Shown here one piece after another: positions 2,677 through 56,123 of a stretch of DNA of 64,000 nucleotides (the stretch's first letter is position 1; each line of letters begins with the position of its first letter). The position numbers and the translations under genes are program-made. A model generated the notes under the pieces. That model made no database searches, was not told where the DNA came from, and was given only the letters and a program-made list of their open reading frames with translations. Origin of the DNA: Candidatus Woesearchaeota archaeon (lineage in GTDB: Archaea; Nanobdellota; Nanobdellia; Woesearchaeales; JAHWIC01); contig JAHWIC010000001.1 in assembly GCA_019322805.1 (NCBI GenBank), forward strand, positions 132,150-196,149, written 5' to 3'.

Positions 2677-3618
2677 ATGAAACACACTCTAAAGATAACA
2701 CTTATTCTTGTAGCAATATTTCTGATATCGCAGGTTGTAGGCTTGGCAATAACAGGCGAGTACATAAACATAGAAGAAAAGACGGTTATTGATGAAACAG
2801 GGAAAGAGGTTGTAGTAAAAGATCTAAGTTATGTTGAACTGCCGTATATAAGCAGGCCTGTTGTTGAGGAAAGCACTTCATTCCTGTATATAATGAGTGC
2901 TGTGTTGATAGGTACTTTGTTGGTATTGATTCTGATAAAATTCAAAAAAGTAAATATCTGGCGCTTTTGGTTTTTCCTTGCTGTATGGATCTGCCTGACA
3001 GTTGCATTAGGGGCTTTTATTCCAAGCAGGATTGCGGCTATTGTTGGATTTGTGTTTGCTGGCTTAAAGGTTTTAAGGCCAACTGTAGTCATACATAATC
3101 TGACTGAGGTGTTTGTTTATGGCGGCTTAGCTGCAATATTTGTTCCAATAATGAATCTGTTTGCTGCTGCTATGCTGCTTGTGTTAATCTCTATCTATGA
3201 TATGTATGCTGTATGGAAAAGCAAACATATGGTCAAACTTGCAAAGTTTGTGTCTAGCTCTAAGTTATTTGCTGGTTTGGCTATTCCTTACAAAAAACCA
3301 AAAAAAGGCAAAATGGTTAAGGTAAAAGAAAAAGCAAAAGGAATTTTAAAGAGGGGTAAGGTGCGCGTAGCAATCTTAGGCGGAGGAGATATAGGATTTC
3401 CATTATTATTCAGCGGAGTGGTTATGAAAACCCTTATCCTTGACAGCTATCTGGTGGGTTTCTTGAAAACATTGATTGTATCTGTTTTTGCAAGTATTGC
3501 ATTACTATGGCTGCTTATCAAAGGAAAGAAAGAGCATTTTTATCCAGCAATGCCTTTCTTGAGTGCTGGATGTTTTTTAGGGTATGCAGTAGTTTTATTG
3601 GTTAGTCTCTTCTTTTGA
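2677..3618 (+). CDS. Presenilin/signal-peptide-peptidase-like intramembrane aspartyl protease (A22 family homolog).
   Basis: Polytopic membrane protein with a YD motif (LISIYDMYAVW), a GxGD motif (AILGGGDIGFPLLF) and a PAL-like motif (FYPAMPF), in the order seen in archaeal presenilin homologs. Confidence 0.55.
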   Translation: MKHTLKITLILVAIFLISQVVGLAITGEYINIEEKTVIDETGKEVVVKDLSYVELPYISRPVVEESTSFLYIMSAVLIGTLLVLILIKFKKVNIWRFWFFLAVWICLTVALGAFIPSRIAAIVGFVFAGLKVLRPTVVIHNLTEVFVYGGLAAIFVPIMNLFAAAMLLVLISIYDMYAVWKSKHMVKLAKFVSSSKLFAGLAIPYKKPKKGKMVKVKEKAKGILKRGKVRVAILGGGDIGFPLLFSGVVMKTLILDSYLVGFLKTLIVSVFASIALLWLLIKGKKEHFYPAMPFLSAGCFLGYAVVLLVSLFF

Positions 3619-4533
3619 TTCTTCTTGAAGAAATATATCTTTCAGGGTTTTTTCGCTGCCAAGAACCTCCTCTGGTTCTTCTACAGTCTGCTGCTCTTCT
3701 GGTGTTTCCTGCGGCTCAGGTTCTTTTGTTATTTCTTCTTTTGGCTCTGGTTCCTTAGATAACTGAGGTTCAGGTTCTTTTTGTTCTGGCTCGGGCTCTT
3801 TCTGCTTAGATTCTTCTTTCTTAACCTCAGTAATCTCTACTCCCTTCTTCTTAGGAAAAGAAACTAATGTTCTTTGACCTTTATCAATAGCATACGAAAG
3901 CGGATTTATTATCATGCCGTCTTTTGCAGCAATTGTCTGCACGCCTGTTTGTTTTTGTATTTCCCTTACTGTATAAAGAGGATCAGCTTCCAGCATCTTT
4001 ATTCCAAAATGAGTTATTATTGCCAGCCTAGGTTTGACTTCCTTGATTATCTTAGCAGCATCCTCGCAGTTTAGATGATCATTTGAATCTGATTTTTTTG
4101 GGTTTGTTACATTAAGGATTAGTATGTTTGAGCCTTTGTACTGCTCTACTAAATCGAGAGAATATGTTGTGTCAGCAAGGTATGATAAAGTAAATTTTGG
4201 GGTAAAAAATTTAAATCCAATTGTATGTGGATCAGAGTGCCTGCACCTTAAAGCCTGGACTTCAACCTCATTTATCCCTACACGCTGGCCAGCCTCTAAA
4301 ACAATAAACCTTTCCAAACAGCCTTTATAGAAGTCAAATAATCTCTGCTGATAATCATCAGAGCCATTTATTACTGTTTTGTTTGCTACAACAACTCCTT
4401 TTTTATCAAAGCCGCGATAAGTCATTGTATCTATAACTGCATTAAGGTCGTTTGAGTGTATTAAATGAGCATGGCTTACAAAAACAGCAGTGTTTGCCCT
4501 TATATTTACACCGCACTGCCTTGCAAATTGCAA
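3595..4533 (-). CDS. MBL-fold metallo-hydrolase with an acidic PE/KE-rich C-terminal tail. The real N-terminus probably lies upstream, near 4668.
   Basis: HAHLIHSND is a metallo-beta-lactamase-type His motif. The in-frame extension upstream to 4674 encodes IASSIIFLGTAGDSFVVGRQIRNSGGIVLNIGENQFHIDPGPG, the typical MBL N-terminal strand, with no ATG/GTG/TTG. The C-terminus carries EPEPK repeats. Confidence 0.6.
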   Translation of the reverse strand: MQFARQCGVNIRANTAVFVSHAHLIHSNDLNAVIDTMTYRGFDKKGVVVANKTVINGSDDYQQRLFDFYKGCLERFIVLEAGQRVGINEVEVQALRCRHSDPHTIGFKFFTPKFTLSYLADTTYSLDLVEQYKGSNILILNVTNPKKSDSNDHLNCEDAAKIIKEVKPRLAIITHFGIKMLEADPLYTVREIQKQTGVQTIAAKDGMIINPLSYAIDKGQRTLVSFPKKKGVEITEVKKEESKQKEPEPEQKEPEPQLSKEPEPKEEITKEPEPQETPEEQQTVEEPEEVLGSEKTLKDIFLQEESKEETNQ

Positions 4534-4821: not shown

Positions 4822-5097
4822 GGGCAAGCTAGGCTGGGAGGTTAGCGCTCTCCTGTCACTGTAAACACGCTTTAGACAGAGTCGAAGCCCAGGAAAAGAT
4901 ATAGGCGTAGTATATCAGTCTTGATTTGGACTATGAGGCTTTGTCCTATTGGACTGGTGTCTTAAGGAATTGGGTCAGGCTGGGAACAGAGCAGCCCTAA
5001 CTTCTGATATTGGTGCTTTTAGGGTAGCGGAGCTGAGAAGAAATCGAGGTAACTGGTGTATTATGTTTGTATCGATTTTTGGGCGCGCTTGCCCACT
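4822..5097 (+). ncRNA. ffs: Signal recognition particle RNA (7S/SRP RNA).
   Basis: GC-rich ORF-free block about 275 nt long. The 5' GGGCAAGC pairs with the 3' GCTTGCCC as a terminal helix. The helix-8 motif GGTCAGGCTGGGAACAGAGCAGCC closely matches the conserved GUCAGGUCCGGAAGGAAGCAGCC of 4.5S/7S RNA. Confidence 0.75.
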
Positions 5098-27481: not shown

Positions 27482-28159
27482 TTATTTCTCCTCCTTAGTT
27501 TCTTCCTTCTTCTCTTTTGGTTTTTTCTCTTCTTTTGATTCCTTTTTCTCTTCCTTCTTTTTTTCACTCTTAGCCCTTCTCTTCCTTCCTTGTTTCTTCT
27601 TTGGAGATTTCTTTTTTTCTTCTTCTTTTTTGGCTGGCTTTTTTTCTTCAACAGCCCTTTCTGGATGATCAGGATTTGATAGTGCAGATCCAGTTCCAAA
27701 ATTTATTGAAGCTTCTTCATCCCTTGATACAAGATAAGAAGGTGAGGTGATGTTCTTACCACCAACGTAGACGTGGTTATGGCTTATGAATTGTCTTGCT
27801 TGCTTTACTGATCTTGCCAGGTTTCTCTTGAAAACCAATGTCTGTAGTCTTCTGTTCATTATATCCTTAAGGGTTATTGTCAATACATCCTCAAGTTTTG
27901 AATCCTTTTCAAGCAAAGCCAATGAATATAATTTTGCTAAGAGTTGAGCTCTTTCAATCTCAGACTGTTTTGTTTGAATGGTGGTTAGTTTCTTTGCTTG
28001 CTCATAGAATTTCTTTAGGATGGAATTCATCTTCCATATCTCACGCTTATTCTTCAGGCCATATTCTTTAAAAAGGGTCTTTTCCTCGTCTATCCTGCTC
28101 TTCTGCCAGGGGTGAGTTGGAGGATAGAACTTCTTTTTCTGTTTCTTTATATCTCCCAT
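27482..28159 (-). CDS. rps4: 30S ribosomal protein S4 (uS4) with a lysine/glutamate-rich C-terminal extension.
   Basis: 225 aa. The S4 domain is followed by [14 protein letters not shown]...KEEK. Confidence 0.9.
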
Positions 28160-28644: not shown

Positions 28645-28768
28645 TTTGTTATTATGGCTTATAGAATTCTAAGAGAACCCTACAAGCGCTATTCACTCGG
28701 GTTTTATGTTGGGAACTCTGGGCGATTTATAAAGGTTATGATTAATCAGAGTTGACGCTGTTAATTAA

Positions 28769-28851
28769 AATACATACATTGTGTGTAAAAGAAGGTTATA
28801 TAAGATTACATACACTGTGTGTATTGGTGACTTGTATGAGTAAAATTTATA
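28769..28851 (+). promoter_or_regulatory. tRNA promoter region: two copies of the quasi-palindromic motif ACATACAyTGTGTGTA (28769-28786 and 28805-28825), then a TATA box AAATTTATAA (28842-28851) about 21 nt before the tRNA.
   Basis: Same motif as at 41615-41634 and 56104-56123. Confidence 0.5.
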
Positions 28852-28871
28852 AGGTACCTAAGAACACTTAA

Positions 28872-28979
28872 CTGTTATGGTGGCCATGGTGTAGCTCGGC
28901 AGCACTGGAGACACGTTTTAAACGCTTCAATGTGGTATGCCATGCAGAAATCTCCTAGGGCGAGTTCAAATCTCGCTGG
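28872..28979 (+). tRNA. Intron-containing tRNA (Glu/Gln-like D-arm). A 39-nt insert lies between anticodon stem halves GGAGA/TCTCC, i.e. a 32-nt intron plus the loop. The anticodon is unresolved and CCA is encoded.
   Basis: Acceptor GTGGCCA/TGGCCAC + C73 + CCA; D-arm GTGT-AGCTCGGCA-GCAC; T-arm GCGAG-TTCAAAT-CTCGC; 4-nt variable loop; T-rich stretch after the 3' end. No placement of the intron yields a loop with U33. Confidence 0.55.
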
Positions 28980-28988
28980 CCACCCCAT

Positions 28989-29492
28989 TTATTTCTTAAT
29001 GCTCATAATCTTTGTTGACAGATAAGGGAGAAGTAAAGCAACAGTATAAACAATTGCAATTGTTAATGGCTGCTGCTGTGTTTTTAGTCCTGCTGCTATG
29101 ATCAAATTCTTAGTGAACATTGTCATATAAACAATAGATACTACAGCAAGGGATAGTATAGAAAAGATAGCAAACACGTGGTGTTTAGTTACAATATGCT
29201 CTATATCGTGAATAATATGGTCTATGAAAAGGCCTAAAGCTATACCTAAGATTGCTGCGACTGAATACAAGGCAAATCCAGTAAAAAAGAACATAAATGG
29301 AACCAGGATTACTGAGGCAACAAGATTGCCGATAATTGCTATTGCAAGAAAAAGCCAGTAGACAGATCTATCAAGGAATTTTACAAAAGGAGTTTTTTTC
29401 TCTTTTGCTTCTTTTGTTATTTTGGATAACCTCTCTATCTCTTCTAAGGTCCACCCCTTTTTCAGCAGTTTGTGGTGAAGATGTTTAGTCAT
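28989..29492 (-). CDS. Membrane protein (4-5 TM helices), last gene of the MinD-like operon.
   Basis: 167 aa, hydrophobic helices, 8-nt overlap with the upstream ATPase gene. Confidence 0.5.
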   Translation of the reverse strand: MTKHLHHKLLKKGWTLEEIERLSKITKEAKEKKTPFVKFLDRSVYWLFLAIAIIGNLVASVILVPFMFFFTGFALYSVAAILGIALGLFIDHIIHDIEHIVTKHHVFAIFSILSLAVVSIVYMTMFTKNLIIAAGLKTQQQPLTIAIVYTVALLLPYLSTKIMSIKK

Positions 29493-31749: not shown

Positions 31750-32142
31750 AAAAGTTAGTAGGGTTAGAATAAGCCACCTTTTGTAGGAACCTTAGTAACC
31801 GCAACTTGTGCGATTGATGCTCCTTCTTAGCATTTAACTAAGCGTCTTTGCGTGCCATAAATGCTCTTCGAGCATTTAACGGTGCTTGACTTGCACAGAC
31901 AAGGACTATCCGTTTCACCCGTTCTTATTAAAACGTCTGCCTGTTAGCTTGTTCTTGTCACCAAAAACTTCAAAGGCATCATCCTCTTAATAAGAGGTCT
32001 CGTTTCTGTGATGTTGCCGCCCATTTCTGGACCTTACTTCCGTAAGTTGCCACAATAAGTGGGTGGACTTTCCTCAGTCAAACAACATGGTTGCCTGCGG
32101 ATTTAACCGCTTGACCGTTAGCTAAGTACTAACCCTACTGCT
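31750..32142 (-). ncRNA. rnpB: RNase P RNA (archaeal type).
   Basis: Minus strand: CR-I GAGGAAAGUCCACCC, CR-II-like GGGUGAAACGGAUAGUCC, CR-V ACAAAAGGUGGCUUAU (P4 pairing AAGUCCACC/GGUGGCUU). The P1 helix pairs GUAGGGUUAG (32127-32139) with CUAACCCUAC (31757-31767). An oligo-U stretch follows the 3' end. Confidence 0.75.
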
Positions 32143-32181: not shown

Positions 32182-33339
32182 TTAAGACGAGAACACAATA
32201 ACCTTACTTTCCTGCTTTCCAAGCCATATAGGCTTTTCATCAACAACCTTGAACTTATGCTTTTCAGCTGCTTTCTTTAGTTCTTCAGGAGATTTTGCAA
32301 TCACAGCTATCTTTCCTTTCTTTTTCAGAACAAACTCTGCCTGATAAAAGAATTCATTGTACAGCTTTTCAATATCCTTAGGGTTTGTGTGCTTTGATAT
32401 TGCTGGCGGGGTTGTGATGATTTTATCAATGCTGTTCTTATCCACCTTAGTGTCGAGCCATTCTATTTCCATTCTTGAGAAATTGATTATTTTGTCAACA
32501 GCAGCTATCTTTGCGTTCTTTTTTGTTGCATCAACATGTCTAAACTGAGCATCAAATGCGTTTATCATTGGTTTCTTGACTAGTTTCTTTTCTTTGTCAA
32601 TTTTATCAAAGAAATCATCAAAATTGATATCATTAAAACATTTTAATTTTAAAAATGAAAATCTGTCCTTTCTGAAGTGATTTACTGAGATATTTGAGGA
32701 ATACAAAGCAGCTTCTATCGGAATCGTTCCTGAGCCTGTGAAAGGGTCCAATAAAATTTCATCTTTCTTGTAATCTGCAATTCTTAACATGGCATAAGCA
32801 ACTGTTCCTTTTAATGCAGTCGGGTGTGAAAAAACCTTATATTCCCGTTTGCTTAAGTCAATTCCTGCAAAATCAATGCCAAAAAAACAATCATTGTCAG
32901 AAATAAAAACATAAAATATAATATCAGGGTTATCGAGATTTACCTTTGGCTCGTATTTGTTTTTCTTCTTAACATTATCAATTATAAACCCGCCAACTTC
33001 TGCGTTTATTTCCTCGCTTGAGATAGAATCGTTATCAACCTTAGAGCAGCTGACCCTGAATGTTTTATCCTTATCCAGCCAATCATCAAGGTTTATTTTA
33101 TCGACTATAATTTTTATCAATTTAAAAAATTCATCATTATCTTTAAATTTAAAAGAGTCAAATGATGAAAGAACTCGCGTGATTGATTGTGATTTATAGC
33201 AGAGCGTACACAACTCAATTAATTCAGCATCAAAAACAAGGCAAGAATTCTTTATTTCAGACTTTTTATTTAATATCTCGTTTATTTCTTTAGAAGTTAT
33301 ATCTTCAATGCCTTTTGAGGTTATTGCTAGGGCTTTCAT
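32182..33339 (-). CDS. THUMP-domain class I SAM-dependent RNA methyltransferase (tRNA m2G-type, Trm14/TrmN-like).
   Basis: 385 aa, N-terminal THUMP domain, motif I LLDPFTGSGTIPIEAA, motif IV-like TTPP. Confidence 0.7.
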   Translation of the reverse strand: MKALAITSKGIEDITSKEINEILNKKSEIKNSCLVFDAELIELCTLCYKSQSITRVLSSFDSFKFKDNDEFFKLIKIIVDKINLDDWLDKDKTFRVSCSKVDNDSISSEEINAEVGGFIIDNVKKKNKYEPKVNLDNPDIIFYVFISDNDCFFGIDFAGIDLSKREYKVFSHPTALKGTVAYAMLRIADYKKDEILLDPFTGSGTIPIEAALYSSNISVNHFRKDRFSFLKLKCFNDINFDDFFDKIDKEKKLVKKPMINAFDAQFRHVDATKKNAKIAAVDKIINFSRMEIEWLDTKVDKNSIDKIITTPPAISKHTNPKDIEKLYNEFFYQAEFVLKKKGKIAVIAKSPEELKKAAEKHKFKVVDEKPIWLGKQESKVIVFSS

Positions 33340-41444: not shown

Positions 41445-41634
41445 TGCACTTTTAGCATGCACAAATAGTTGTGCACTTGGTTGAGTTTTTTATTATTTAA
41501 TTTTAAAAATTTAAAACAATTAAAAATAAATAAGGTTGAACTTCGTAGTTTAGACAAACATTGTTTGGCTTCTTCTGTTTCTGCACCTAATGGTTAATTT
41601 TGTTGATGGTGGCTATACATACAATGTGTGTATT
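41445..41634 (+). repeat. Intergenic repeat family, copy B (GTGCAC palindromes / GCACAAatagTTGTGC hairpin, T-run, AACAATTAAAAATAAATAAGG box, CAAACattGTTTG hairpin, ACATACAATGTGTGTATT motif).
   Basis: About 80% identical over about 170 nt to copy C (55950-56123). It lies between the tandem-domain genes and the tRNA-Leu(CAA) promoter. Confidence 0.65.
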
Positions 41635-41686: not shown

Positions 41687-41853
41687 GCGGGGATGCCGGA
41701 GACCTAAAGGCATATGCCCTAAGGCCGGATTGGCCAAACGGGATAGACTCAAGGCATTTGAGTGTTGAGTGCTCGTCAGAGTGCGATGAAAGAATCATTT
41801 GTAAGTCATCTATTGGCTTAGTGCCTACCGGGGTTCGAATCCTCGTCCCCGCA
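41687..41853 (+). tRNA. tRNA-Leu(CAA) (class II) with two introns: a D-loop intron (about 41705-41730, 26 nt) and a canonical 37/38 anticodon-loop intron (41754-41807, 54 nt).
   Basis: Acceptor GCGGGGA/TCCCCGC + A73; D-arm CCG-GAGACC[intron]TGGCCAAA-CGG; anticodon arm ATAGA-CUCAAG[intron]A-TCTAT (mature loop CUCAAGA); variable arm GGC-TTAGT-GCC; T-arm CGGGG-TTCGAAT-CCTCG. A TATA box AACTATAAATAAAAC lies about 25 nt upstream. Confidence 0.75.
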
Positions 41854-44637: not shown

Positions 44638-45984
44638 GTGGGTAAAATGATAGAAATACGCGCAGTTGGAGGCTATAATGAGGTTGGCAAGAATATGACT
44701 GCCATTAAGATAGATGATGAGGTTGTTATCATAGATATGGGCCTTCATATGGAGAGTTACATTAAGTACACTGAAGAAGATGAAGATATACGCAATATAA
44801 GCGCTGCTGAGCTGTTAAAAGTAGGAGCAATACCTGATGATTCTGTAATCAAGGACTGGAAAGGTTCTGTTAAAGCAATTATCCCAACGCATGCGCATCT
44901 TGACCATGTTGGTGCACTTATCTTTCTTGCTAATAAGTATAAGGCTCCGATAGTCTGCACGCCTTTTACAAGAGAGGTTATAAGAAGCATAAGCAAGGAT
45001 GAAGGAATAAAACTAAAGAACAATATCAAAACACTTAATGTGAACTCCAGCTATAATATTTCTAAAAACATTAAGATTGAATTCATAAATATGACCCATT
45101 CTACACCTCAGACAGTTATGGTTGCTTTGCATACAAGGCATGGAATTGTCCTGTACGCAAATGATTTCAAATTTGACAATCATCCGATTATTGGGAAAAA
45201 GCCAAATTACAAGAGGTTAAAGGAGTTAGGCAAAGAGGGTGTTTTGTGTGCAATAGTTGACTGCACAAGAGCAAAAAGATCAGTTAAAACCCCAAGCGAG
45301 ACTGTTGCAAAAGAAATGCTCAGGGATGTTATGCTTGGAACAGATTCAACAAACAAAGCAGTTATTATCACTACATTCTCTTCACATCTTGCAAGGCTAA
45401 AGTCAATTGTAGAGTTTGGCAAGAAGATGAACAGAAAGATTGTCTTCTTAGGGAGATCATTGGCAAAATATACTAAAGCAGGAGAAAATATTGGCTTAGT
45501 GAAGTTCTCCAAGGAAGTTGAAATCGTGAAGTTTGGAAAGCAGATAAAGAAGAAGCTAAAAAAGATAGAAACTGATGGACGCGAGAAATATCTTATGGTT
45601 GTTACAGGCCACCAGGGAGAGCCTAAAGCAACCCTGTCAAAGATCGCAGATAAAGTTTTGCCGTTTAAGCTTTACTCAGAAGACCATATAATCTTTTCAT
45701 GTACGGTTATTCCATCTCCTACGAATATTGAGAACAGAAAAATTCTTGAAGATAAATTAAAAAGGTATGGTGTGAGGATTTTTAGGGATATACATGTAAG
45801 CGGGCATGCTGCAAGAGAAGATTTGAGAGACTTGATAAACCTGGTTGAGCCAAAGAACCTTATTCCTGCTCACGGTGATTACTCAATGAAAGACGCATTT
45901 GTTGAGCTGGCAATGGATAAAGGATATAAAGTCGGAAAGAATATCCATATACTCAAAGATGGTGGTAAATTAAAGCTTGCTTAG
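44638..45984 (+). CDS. rnj: Archaeal ribonuclease J (beta-CASP MBL-fold RNase).
   Basis: 448 aa, MBL motifs IIPTHAHLDHVGAL, beta-CASP region and C-terminal HVSGHAAREDL. Confidence 0.85.
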   Translation: MGKMIEIRAVGGYNEVGKNMTAIKIDDEVVIIDMGLHMESYIKYTEEDEDIRNISAAELLKVGAIPDDSVIKDWKGSVKAIIPTHAHLDHVGALIFLANKYKAPIVCTPFTREVIRSISKDEGIKLKNNIKTLNVNSSYNISKNIKIEFINMTHSTPQTVMVALHTRHGIVLYANDFKFDNHPIIGKKPNYKRLKELGKEGVLCAIVDCTRAKRSVKTPSETVAKEMLRDVMLGTDSTNKAVIITTFSSHLARLKSIVEFGKKMNRKIVFLGRSLAKYTKAGENIGLVKFSKEVEIVKFGKQIKKKLKKIETDGREKYLMVVTGHQGEPKATLSKIADKVLPFKLYSEDHIIFSCTVIPSPTNIENRKILEDKLKRYGVRIFRDIHVSGHAAREDLRDLINLVEPKNLIPAHGDYSMKDAFVELAMDKGYKVGKNIHILKDGGKLKLA

Positions 45985-55573: not shown

Positions 55574-55936
55574 TTATAATTCAATTTTATTTAAATAGCT
55601 TACTAGTCCTTCTATATGGCTAAGTTTTGTGTTTTTCTGTAGAAACTCGCGAAATCTGTTATCAACCTTAACTCCATGCCTTTGCAAGCCAGAATTTAAC
55701 CTTCCATAAAGTTGTTTTCCTTTTTTGTCAAAGTCAGTAAGAATTGTTATCGTTTTGTTTTTCTTCGATAGTTCCTCGATGATTTGAAACATTGGTTTTT
55801 TGCTGAGCGTAACAATGTTTTTTAGCCCTAAATAATTTAGTGCTTTTTTGTCTTTTATTCCTTCAACAATTATTATATTTTCAGAATTCTTTAGTCTTTC
55901 AATCTCTTCTTCAATTTCATCAGTGTTTTTTATCAT
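55574..55936 (-). CDS. Small stand-alone Toprim-domain protein.
   Basis: 120 aa, IIIVEGIKDKKALNYLG and TILTDFDKKGK Toprim acidic motifs. Confidence 0.6.
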   Translation of the reverse strand: MIKNTDEIEEEIERLKNSENIIIVEGIKDKKALNYLGLKNIVTLSKKPMFQIIEELSKKNKTITILTDFDKKGKQLYGRLNSGLQRHGVKVDNRFREFLQKNTKLSHIEGLVSYLNKIEL

Positions 55937-55949
55937 TAGGTGTTGTTAC

Positions 55950-56123
55950 ACATGCACAATTAGTTGTGCACTTGATCCAGTTTTTTATTTTTTAATTTTT
56001 TATAATTATAACAATTAAAAATAAATAAGGTGGAACTTCGTACCTCTGTCAAACTTTGTTTGGCTGCAGTATTTGTGAACCGGGTGATTTATTTCTAATG
56101 ATAATACATACATTGTGTGTATT
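55950..56123 (+). repeat. Intergenic repeat family, copy C.
   Basis: GCACAAttagTTGTGC hairpin + T-run + AACAATTAAAAATAAATAAGGTGGAACTTCGTA + CAAACtttGTTTG + ATACATACATTGTGTGTATT. No tRNA follows this copy. Confidence 0.65.

What the first reader, a model, noticed from the sequence alone, without database searches (positions are those of the whole stretch)
28872..28979. Intron-containing tRNA whose anticodon loop cannot be reconciled with a canonical U33
Acceptor (GTGGCCA/TGGCCAC), D-arm (GTGT/GCAC, D-loop with GG), T-arm (GCGAG-TTCAAAT-CTCGC), discriminator and encoded CCA are all clean. A 39-nt stretch separates the only possible anticodon-stem halves (GGAGA/TCTCC). No way of removing a 32-nt intron leaves a 7-nt loop with U at position 33, so either the intron is at an unusual place (e.g. 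within the stem or after position 32) or the tRNA has a nonstandard loop. The D-arm (TGGTGTAGC...) resembles Glu/Gln/Asp tRNAs.
Basis: seen in the sequence. Interest (0 to 1): 0.55.

Follow-up and report, generated by a model that had tools for sequence, protein, structure and literature searches.

The report
Two-intron histidine tRNA gene, Woesearchaeota
This is an ordinary histidine tRNA gene of a tiny DPANN archaeon, interrupted by two short introns inside its anticodon loop rather than one; cutting both out gives a standard loop, so it belongs to a known class of multi-intron archaeal tRNAs that standard gene finders miss.

Summary
The tRNA is real, at 28879/28880-28987 (+). The answer is two bulge-helix-bulge (BHB) introns. 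Intron 1 is 28913-28930 (18 nt, between positions 32/33, relaxed HBh' type). Intron 2 is 28936-28949 (14 nt, canonical 37/38). Removing both gives tRNA-His(GUG) with loop C-U-G-U-G-G-A, encoded G-1 paired to C73, a 4-nt variable loop and encoded CCA. This is the only 1- or 2-intron solution with U33 and valid BHBs; 2 of 5000 shuffled inserts give a GTG solution. A covariance model built only from relatives' tRNA-His hits the locus at 75.8 bits. Syntenic orthologues in related Woesearchaeota have the same mature sequence, but with introns at 59/60, at 53/54, or none. Intron 2's full BHB forms only after intron 1 is removed, a dependency already described for archaeal multi-intron tRNAs. Verdict: a new member of a known kind and modestly interesting. 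Its value lies in annotating DPANN genomes and in showing fast intron turnover. A second two-intron tRNA, Leu(CAA), lies at 41687-41852.

The parts
28846..28852 (+). TATA box (TTTATAA, within AAATTTATAAGG 28843-28854), 33 nt upstream of G-1; predicted archaeal promoter of the tRNA gene
   Evidence: Read from the sequence. A TTTATAA/TTTATAT box lies at the same distance upstream of tRNA-His in the relatives L001, L004, L007, L016-L020 and L022. Promoter function is inferred, not shown.
28879..28879 (+). Genome-encoded G-1, pairing with C73 (28984); the hallmark identity element of tRNA-His
   Evidence: G-1 and C73 are invariant in all 15 related tRNA-His genes. Model R1 and the weak Rfam tRNA-Sec hit both start at 28879 and include this extra pair.
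28880..28912 (+). Exon 1: tRNA positions 1-32 (acceptor 5' strand, D-arm with a 9-nt D-loop, anticodon-stem 5' strand GGAGA, C32)
   Evidence: ARAGORN cloverleaf of the spliced product; gap-free alignment with orthologues; CM alignment through C32.
28913..28930 (+). Intron 1, 18 nt (ACGTTTTAAACGCTTCAA), between positions 32/33. The central 4-bp helix pairs G27-G30 (GGAG) with the intron's CTTC. 5' bulge A31-C32|A; inner helix CGTT/AACG (4 bp); 3' bulge A-A|U33; only 1 bp of outer helix. This is the relaxed HBh' type.
   Evidence: It is the top-scoring BHB in the whole precursor: central 4/4, inner 4. It belongs to the unique valid solution.
28931..28935 (+). Exon 2, 5 nt (TGTGG): U33, anticodon G34-U35-G36, G37
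   Evidence: U33, GUG and G37 are invariant in the orthologue alignments.
28936..28949 (+). Intron 2, 14 nt (TATGCCATGCAGAA), at the canonical 37/38 position. Central helix C32-U33-G34-U35 with the intron's GCAG. 5' bulge G36-G37|U; 3' bulge A-A|A38; the outer helix is the 5-bp anticodon stem; inner helix AU/AU (2 bp).
   Evidence: In the intermediate the BHB scores central 4/4, outer 5, inner 2; in the unspliced precursor it scores only 3/4. Canonical tRNA-His introns in L005 and L006 share the -6..-3 GCAG motif; L006's also ends GCAGAA.
28950..28984 (+). Exon 3: positions 38-73 (A38, anticodon-stem 3' strand TCTCC, 4-nt variable loop TAGG, T-arm GCGAG-TTCAAAT-CTCGC, acceptor 3' strand, discriminator C73)
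28985..28987 (+). Genome-encoded CCA, followed by a T-rich tract (TTTATTTCTT, 28988-28997) that probably acts as terminator
   Evidence: CCA is also encoded in the closest relatives L016 and L017 but not in L018-L023.

Best explanation
The locus is the tRNA-His(GUG) gene of a Woesearchaeota (DPANN) archaeon, interrupted by two short protein-spliced (bulge-helix-bulge) introns that both lie inside the 7-nt anticodon loop. Shown from sequence: intron 1 (28913-28930, between positions 32/33) forms a BHB. Its 3' part (CUUC) pairs with the 5' strand of the anticodon stem (G27-G30) in place of the stem's own 3' strand, and each splice site sits in a 3-nt bulge. Intron 2 (28936-28949, between 37/38) forms the classical hBHBh' motif on top of the anticodon stem, but its central helix needs C32 and U33 to be adjacent. 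Inferred mechanism: the precursor is transcribed from the TATA box at 28846-28852. The archaeal splicing endonuclease EndA cuts both bulges of intron 1, which requires a form that accepts relaxed BHBs. RtcB-type ligase joins C32 to U33. The RNA then refolds so that GGAGA pairs with UCUCC, which completes the BHB of intron 2. EndA and ligase act again, joining G37 to A38. RNase P leaves G-1 in place. The product is a 77-nt tRNA-His (G-1 to CCA) with loop C-U-G-U-G-G-A. The splice junctions and the product are well supported. The order (1 then 2) is inferred from pairing geometry only, and the enzymes are inferred from the literature because they are not encoded in this window.
For: (1) An exhaustive search of all 1- and 2-intron excisions of the 39-nt insert gives exactly one solution with U33 and a valid BHB at every junction. 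In 5000 shuffles of the insert, 69 give any such solution and 2 give one with anticodon GTG. (2) Intron 1 is the best BHB in the precursor (central 4/4, inner 4). Intron 2 becomes a full hBHBh' (4/4, outer 5, inner 2) once intron 1 is removed. (3) ARAGORN calls the spliced product tRNA-His(gtg) with a perfect cloverleaf. (4) G-1:C73 is encoded. (5) CM R1, built from 15 relatives without the window, hits 28879-28984 at 75.8 bits, E = 4.5e-17, with 32 extra nt placed after C32. (6) The predicted product aligns gap-free with intronless tRNA-His genes that have the identical anticodon arm GGAGA-CTGTGGA-TCTCC: L001-L003, L007, L008, L010. (7) Syntenic orthologues (167-aa ORF | tRNA-His | rps13) exist in 7 related Woesearchaeota contigs. 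(8) Relatives carry verified BHB introns at 59/60, 53/54 and 37/38, so the lineage clearly processes non-canonical introns. The other tRNA in the window, Leu(CAA), also has two BHB introns. (9) The sequence is identical in 5 independent assemblies. (10) Literature: DPANN lineages including Woesearchaeota have EndA variants associated with many disrupted and multi-intron tRNAs (PMC5829648). Closely spaced introns in which one must be removed before the second BHB can form are described in PMC8450103.
Against: There is no expression or splicing data. No EndA or RtcB was found among 30 window ORFs scanned against Pfam, so the enzyme type in this genome is unknown. Intron 1's 3' bulge is closed by only one G.U pair, so cleavage depends on a broad-specificity enzyme. 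Neither BHB conformer is the thermodynamic MFE of the naked precursor. No relative found carries the 32/33 intron, so there is no covariation support for its helices. The rest of the genome was not available, so a second, intronless tRNA-His copy cannot be excluded.
Confidence: 0.88

Rival explanations
1. One 32-nt intron is removed and the tRNA works with a non-standard anticodon loop lacking U33. This is the reader's alternative, and ARAGORN's forced call of tRNA-Ser(AGA) with intron 28913-28944.
For: ARAGORN -i reports tRNA-Ser(aga) i(34,32).
Against: None of the 8 single excisions has a BHB: the central helix is at most 2/4. A Ser tRNA would need a long variable arm, whereas this one has a 4-nt variable loop, C73 and G-1. 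The two-intron solution is unique and yields a product identical in its anticodon arm to intronless relatives.
Confidence: 0.02
2. The locus is a decaying or unexpressed pseudogene of tRNA-His whose anticodon loop acquired junk insertions, and a functional copy lies elsewhere in the genome.
For: There is no expression data. The closest relative by S13 (L016, 91%) lacks both anticodon-loop introns. The rest of the genome was not examined.
Against: All stems are perfect and G-1:C73 is kept. The TATA box is at the conserved distance. The gene occupies the syntenic slot of tRNA-His in 7 relatives. Both insertions satisfy BHB geometry, with a probability of about 4e-4 under shuffling. The sequence is identical across 5 assemblies. 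Small DPANN genomes normally carry single-copy tRNA genes (general knowledge).
Confidence: 0.05
3. The same two introns are present, but they are removed in the opposite order or independently (intron 2 first), from a conformer with the anticodon stem formed and intron 1 as a side hairpin.
For: In the unspliced precursor intron 2 still has 3 of 4 central pairs, both 3-nt bulges and the 2-bp inner helix. Intron 1's BHB is unchanged after intron 2 is removed: scores (3,2,1) then (4,4,1). The two hand-built conformers are nearly isoenergetic, -23.6 versus -22.3 kcal/mol.
Against: Only the order 1 then 2 gives 4/4 central helices at both steps and lets the 5-bp anticodon stem act as outer helix for intron 2. 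With intron 1 present, the 19 nt between A31 and U33 interrupt the helix stack that the endonuclease measures (inference).
Confidence: 0.3

Closest known systems
[quoted passage not shown]
   Same: Short introns bounded by bulge-helix-bulge motifs, up to three per gene. One intron can lie so close to another that it must be removed before the second BHB can form (PMC8450103). Relaxed HBh'/hBH motifs occur at non-canonical sites (PMC3239211, PMC5829648, PMC4090602).
   Different: The host is a Woesearchaeota (DPANN) archaeon rather than TACK. Both introns lie inside the 7-nt anticodon loop, leaving a 5-nt middle exon (U33-G37). I could not verify in the papers I could access whether the 32/33 + 37/38 combination has been catalogued. 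From memory, 32/33 is among reported non-canonical sites, but that is unchecked.
ARMAN-2 (Ca. Micrarchaeum) disrupted tRNAs, e.g. pre-tRNA-Pro(GGG) with adjacent introns at 53/54 and 59/60 (Fujishima et al. 2011, PMC3239211)
   Same: A DPANN organism with two closely spaced BHB introns in one loop of a tRNA, and an endonuclease with broadened specificity. The relatives of this window use exactly those 53/54 and 59/60 sites in the orthologous tRNA-His.
   Different: There the two introns are in the T-loop; here they are in the anticodon loop. The ARMAN-2 enzyme is the epsilon2 type, and the enzyme of this organism is unknown.
Nanoarchaeum equitans split tRNA-His(GUG), whose halves are joined at 37/38 through a BHB-like motif (PMC4090602)
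   Same: The same isoacceptor in a DPANN archaeon, disrupted at 37/38 and repaired by the BHB endonuclease/ligase pathway.
   Different: That gene is split into two separately transcribed halves; here the gene is contiguous and cis-spliced.
tRNA intron gain, loss and 'transposition' in Thermoproteales (Fujishima et al. 2010, as summarised in PMC4090602 and PMC4033280)
   Same: The orthologous tRNA carries introns at different positions in close relatives (32/33+37/38, 59/60, 53/54 or none), which implies rapid turnover.
   Different: No sequence similarity between introns at different sites could be shown here because they are too short. Only the shared grammar is seen: the intron's -6..-3 nucleotides complement the four exon bases upstream of the 5' bulge.

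Membership tests
Archaeal BHB (EndA-spliced) tRNA intron | Two 3-nt bulges on opposite strands separated by a 4-bp helix, with cleavage after the 2nd bulge nucleotide - intron 1 (28913-28930) | tested here: met
   Central helix GGAG/CUUC 4/4 (one G.U). 5' bulge A-C|A closed by the 4-bp inner helix CGUU/AACG. 3' bulge A-A|U followed by only 1 bp, so this is the relaxed HBh' form.
Archaeal BHB (EndA-spliced) tRNA intron | Strict hBHBh' at the canonical 37/38 position - intron 2 (28936-28949) | tested here: met
   After in-silico removal of intron 1: central CUGU/GCAG 4/4, outer helix 5 bp (the anticodon stem), inner helix 2 bp. Before removal the central helix is only 3/4.
Archaeal BHB (EndA-spliced) tRNA intron | Excision restores a canonical cloverleaf with a 7-nt anticodon loop and U33 | tested here: met
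   ARAGORN calls tRNA-His(gtg) with loop CUGUGGA. The product aligns gap-free with 11 orthologues.
Archaeal BHB (EndA-spliced) tRNA intron | The genome encodes a splicing endonuclease (EndA) able to cut relaxed BHBs, and an RtcB ligase | not testable with these tools
   Neither was found among 30 window ORFs scanned with Pfam, and the rest of the genome is not available. The literature reports EndA variants with specificity loops in DPANN, including a Woesearchaeota genome (PMC5829648).
Archaeal BHB (EndA-spliced) tRNA intron | Introns are actually excised in vivo or in vitro | not testable with these tools
   No RNA data available.
tRNA-His | Extra G-1 paired with discriminator C73 | tested here: met
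   G at 28879 and C at 28984. Invariant in all relatives. Included in the full-length CM hit.
tRNA-His | Anticodon GUG | tested here: met
   G34-U35-G36 = 28932-28934 after BHB-defined splicing.
tRNA-His | Sequence and structure similarity to bona fide tRNA-His of related organisms, in the orthologous genomic position | tested here: met
   CM R1 gives 75.8 bits, E = 4.5e-17. The gene order 167-aa ORF | tRNA-His | rps13-rps4-rps11-rpoD is conserved in L016-L020, L022 and L023.
Multi-intron tRNA with interdependent BHBs (as handled iteratively by tRNAscan-SE 2.0) | The second BHB is complete only after the first intron is removed | tested here: met
   Intron 2 scores (3,2,1) in the precursor and (4,2,5) in the intermediate. 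C32 and U33 lie in the two bulges of BHB 1, so the two motifs exclude each other.
Split or permuted tRNA gene | The halves are encoded separately or in reversed order | tested here: not met
   The gene is contiguous and collinear over 28879-28987.
Self-splicing group I / group II intron | A catalytic RNA core of hundreds of nucleotides | tested here: not met
   The introns are 18 and 14 nt, and there are no Rfam intron hits.

The most novel reading that the evidence does not exclude
tRNA introns are being gained, lost or moved very quickly in this Woesearchaeota clade. The same single-copy tRNA-His gene carries introns at 32/33+37/38, at 59/60, at 53/54 or none in species whose S13 proteins are 75-91% identical. 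The 32/33 intron works by mimicking the anticodon stem's 3' strand, which forces an obligatory two-step, refold-between-steps splicing pathway with a 5-nt middle exon. If intron mobility is still active here, the clade could be a natural system for working out how archaeal BHB introns are inserted, which is still unknown.
Probability: 0.3. Interest if true: 0.55.

Novelty: new member of a known kind. Interest (0 to 1): 0.3.

Why it matters
The practical value is in annotation. Both tRNA genes in this 64-kb window carry two introns, and ARAGORN and Rfam miss both. This fits the published remark that DPANN genomes appear to lack complete tRNA sets because disrupted genes go undetected (PMC5829648). 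Annotating such genomes without BHB-aware, iterative splicing would wrongly suggest missing tRNA-His and tRNA-Leu(CAA). For evolution, the orthologue series (introns at four different sites, or none, in one syntenic gene) is a compact example of rapid intron turnover outside the TACK archaea. It does not reveal a new mechanism.

Tried and rejected
(1) ARAGORN default finds nothing. With -i it forces tRNA-Ser(aga) with one 32-nt intron, and on the intermediate it calls tRNA-Tyr(gta) with the intron at 36/37. I rejected these because there is no BHB at those junctions and the identity elements are wrong: G-1, C73 and a short variable loop. (2) Rfam at gathering threshold gives no tRNA hit. In E-value mode it gives only a weak tRNA-Sec hit (21.4 bits), caused by the 8-bp acceptor stem that includes G-1. 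(3) All other two-intron splices with U33, for example loop CUUCAAU (anticodon UCA), lack valid BHBs. (4) The genome contigs and metagenome contigs pattern scans, allowing 0-30 nt at both intron sites, found no other gene with a 32/33 intron. I therefore have no covariation test for intron 1's helices. The window's own contig is not in those two collections. (5) The thermodynamic MFE of the precursor does not show either BHB. That is uninformative, because BHBs are enzyme-recognised motifs with bulges that MFE folding penalises. (6) A Pfam scan of 30 ORFs for EndA/RtcB found neither. (7) I could not check the literature for '32/33' because the slash cannot be searched, and Marck & Grosjean 2003 and Sugahara 2007 are not held. 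(8) An automated two-intron search on the second tRNA (41687-41852) gave many weak combinations. I resolved it by hand as Leu(CAA). (9) Model R1 treats the loop as a local-end replacement, so it confirms where the insert is but not the exact junctions.

Full report
OBSERVATION. The window is archaeal, with RNase P RNA at 31759-32137 (-) and SRP RNA at 4822-5094 (+). Homologues of the neighbouring S13 protein place it in Woesearchaeota (DPANN). Default ARAGORN finds no tRNA in the whole window, and Rfam at gathering threshold finds none either. With introns allowed, ARAGORN forces a tRNA-Ser(aga) call with one 32-nt intron.

I enumerated all eight ways of removing a single 32-nt block from the 39-nt insert. 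None leaves T at position 33, and none has a bulge-helix-bulge motif at its junctions.

WHAT IS REALLY THERE. I scanned the precursor for the archaeal splicing motif: two 3-nt bulges separated by a 4-bp helix, with cleavage after the second bulge nucleotide. The best hit anywhere in the precursor is an 18-nt intron at 28913-28930, between tRNA positions 32 and 33. Its central helix pairs G27-G30 (GGAG) with the intron's CUUC (4/4). The 5' bulge is A31-C32|A, the inner helix is CGUU/AACG (4 bp), and the 3' bulge is A-A|U33. Only one pair closes the 3' bulge on the exon side, so this is the relaxed HBh' form. After removing this intron in silico, the best BHB in the intermediate is a 14-nt intron at 28936-28949, at the canonical 37/38 position. 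Its central helix pairs C32-U33-G34-U35 with GCAG (4/4), the 5-bp anticodon stem serves as outer helix, and the inner helix is 2 bp. Removing both gives a 77-nt RNA (G-1 to CCA) that ARAGORN folds as a perfect tRNA-His(gtg) with loop C-U-G-U-G-G-A.

IS IT MORE THAN CHANCE? I searched exhaustively over all one- and two-intron excisions (each intron at least 11 nt, 32 nt removed in total), requiring U33 and a valid BHB at every junction. The real sequence has exactly one solution, the one above. Among 5000 shuffles of the 39-nt insert, 69 give any solution and only 2 give one with anticodon GTG, which is the anticodon that the independently encoded G-1:C73 identity pair demands.

INDEPENDENT AND COMPARATIVE EVIDENCE.
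- Pattern scans of genome and metagenome collections, allowing 0-30 nt at the two intron sites, returned intronless tRNA-His genes with the same anticodon arm GGAGA-CTGTGGA-TCTCC, G-1 and C73. One of these is in a Woesearchaeota MAG.
- Two genes (L005, L006) have a canonical 37/38 intron with the same -6..-3 GCAG motif as the window's intron 2, and L006's ends GCAGAA as well. That motif pairs with C32-U35.
- Contigs encoding S13 proteins 69-91% identical to the window's keep the gene order 167-aa ORF | tRNA-His | rps13-rps4-rps11-rpoD. In that slot L020, L022 and L023 have intronless tRNA-His. L016, L017 and L019 have a BHB intron at 59/60 (central 4/4, outer 5). L018 has one at 53/54 (central 4/4, inner 6).
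- The window's predicted mature sequence aligns gap-free with these (mean column identity 85%). G-1, U33, GUG, G37 and C73 are invariant.
- A covariance model built from 15 relatives, excluding the window, hits 28879-28984 over the full model, including G-1:C73, at 75.8 bits (E = 4.5e-17). It places 38 nt where six loop positions are expected after C32.
- The locus is base-for-base identical in four other independent assemblies, so it is not an assembly artefact.
- A TTTATAA box lies 33 nt upstream of G-1 here and at the same distance in the relatives, which argues for an active gene.

MECHANISM. Shown: the two BHB geometries and the product. Inferred: EndA cuts, an RtcB-type ligase joins, and RNase P leaves G-1 in place. 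The two BHBs exclude each other. C32 and U33 sit in the two bulges of BHB 1, and G27-G30 pair with the intron instead of with U39-C43. BHB 2 needs C32-U33 contiguous and the anticodon stem formed. In the unspliced precursor intron 2 has only 3/4 central pairs. The simplest pathway is therefore: excise intron 1, ligate, refold, then excise intron 2. I give the opposite order a probability of about 0.3, because intron 2 retains a partial motif and hand-built conformers are nearly isoenergetic. [quoted passage not shown] The enzyme could not be examined, because no EndA or RtcB is among the 30 window ORFs scanned. Kaneta et al. 2018 report that DPANN lineages, including a Woesearchaeota genome, have EndA variants associated with many disrupted and multi-intron tRNAs, and that their predicted tRNA sets are incomplete (PMC5829648). 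Positions 53/54 and 59/60 are documented sites in ARMAN-2 (PMC3239211).

COMPARISON AND NOVELTY. This is a new member of a known kind: a multi-intron archaeal tRNA with one relaxed non-canonical intron and one canonical intron. What is specific to it is that both introns sit inside the anticodon loop with a 5-nt middle exon, that the host is Woesearchaeota, and that the orthologous gene in close relatives carries introns at completely different sites or none. The closest relative by S13 (91%) has the 59/60 intron and neither anticodon-loop intron. That implies fast intron turnover, as reported for Thermoproteales (summarised in PMC4090602 and PMC4033280). I could not verify from the accessible papers whether the 32/33 + 37/38 pair has been catalogued before.

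REJECTED READINGS.
- A single intron with a non-standard loop is rejected because there is no BHB and the identity elements are wrong.
- A pseudogene is unlikely given the perfect stems, the conserved promoter, the syntenic position and the non-random BHBs, but it cannot be strictly excluded without the full genome or RNA data.
- A split or permuted gene and a self-splicing intron are both excluded by the anatomy.

SIDE FINDINGS.
- A second hidden tRNA, Leu(CAA), lies at 41687-41852 (+). It has introns at 15/16 (29 nt) and 37/38 (54 nt).
- A 17-nt palindrome, TACATACANTGTGTGTA, occurs four times (0 expected), each time in an intergenic region just upstream of a TATA-like box.
- The rps13 leader contains a conserved 13-bp hairpin with four covarying pairs.

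VERDICT. Interest is 0.3.

Noticed in passing
window 41687-41852 (+): A second tRNA gene that ARAGORN and Rfam both miss. It is a class II tRNA-Leu(CAA) with A73, a 29-nt D-loop intron (41702-41730, position 15/16; BHB central 4/4, inner 3) and a 54-nt canonical intron (41754-41807; central 3/4 with a C34.A mismatch, outer 6). The spliced product is called tRNA-Leu(caa), 84 nt, by ARAGORN. So both tRNA genes in this window carry two introns.
   Followed up: yes
window 28771-28787, 28807-28823, 41616-41632, 56105-56121: The 17-nt palindrome TACATACANTGTGTGTA occurs 4 times (0 expected in 100 shuffles). Two copies lie between the divergent rps13 and tRNA-His promoters, one lies about 20 nt upstream of the tRNA-Leu TATA box, and one lies in the intergenic region upstream of a Toprim-domain ORF (55574-55936, -). 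Similar palindromes occupy the same rps13/tRNA-His spacer in the relatives L016-L020 and L022. It may be an operator for a transcription factor controlling translation-machinery genes.
   Followed up: partly
window 28657-28687 (-), within the rps13 leader 28645-28723 (-): The ~80-nt leader between the rps13 TATA box (28724-28735, -) and the start codon is strongly conserved in 9 Woesearchaeota loci. It contains a predicted 13-bp hairpin (GCUUGUAGGGUUC...GAAUUCUAUAAGC), and 4 of its pairs keep pairing through changes on both sides (RNAalifold). There is no Rfam match. It could be a ribosomal-protein autoregulatory leader for the S13-S4-S11-RpoD operon, analogous in role to the bacterial alpha-operon leader bound by S4; that comparison is from memory and untested.
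   Followed up: partly
L016, L017, L019 (59/60), L018 (53/54), L020, L022, L023 (none): syntenic tRNA-His: The orthologous tRNA-His gene carries BHB introns at different positions, or none, in species whose S13 proteins are 69-91% identical to the window's. The intron complement has therefore changed several times within one clade. The 59/60 introns of L016, L017 and L019 share their ends (TATCCCAG...GGATTTGRRAG), which suggests common descent.
   Followed up: partly
L024 1861-2501 (minus-strand reading): In a more distant relative (S13 68%) the slot upstream of rps13 holds two other tRNAs instead: a tRNA-Val(TAC)-like gene with an insert in the T-loop, and a longer gene with several inserts. 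A LAGLIDADG-domain ORF is next to them.
   Followed up: no
L005 ~1700-1800 (tRNA-His, metagenome contig Ga0209541_10110493): This tRNA-His has a 13-nt canonical intron plus an insert of about 20 nt in the D-loop. My BHB-plus-ARAGORN screen did not resolve it.
   Followed up: no
window 27482-28159 (-) and 3595-4425 (-): Ribosomal protein S4 has a long Lys/Glu-rich C-terminal tail (about 60 aa of KKEEK repeats), and another ORF has a Glu/Pro/Lys-rich tail. The relatives' S4 proteins are of similar length (218-231 aa), so the extension appears to be conserved in the clade.
   Followed up: no
window 32182-33339 (-), 31759-32137 (-), 44647-45984 (+): Several tRNA/RNA-processing genes lie near the tRNA-His: a THUMP-domain methyltransferase (PF02926 + PF01170), the RNase P RNA, and an RNase J-like beta-CASP nuclease. 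No EndA or RtcB is present in the window.
   Followed up: partly
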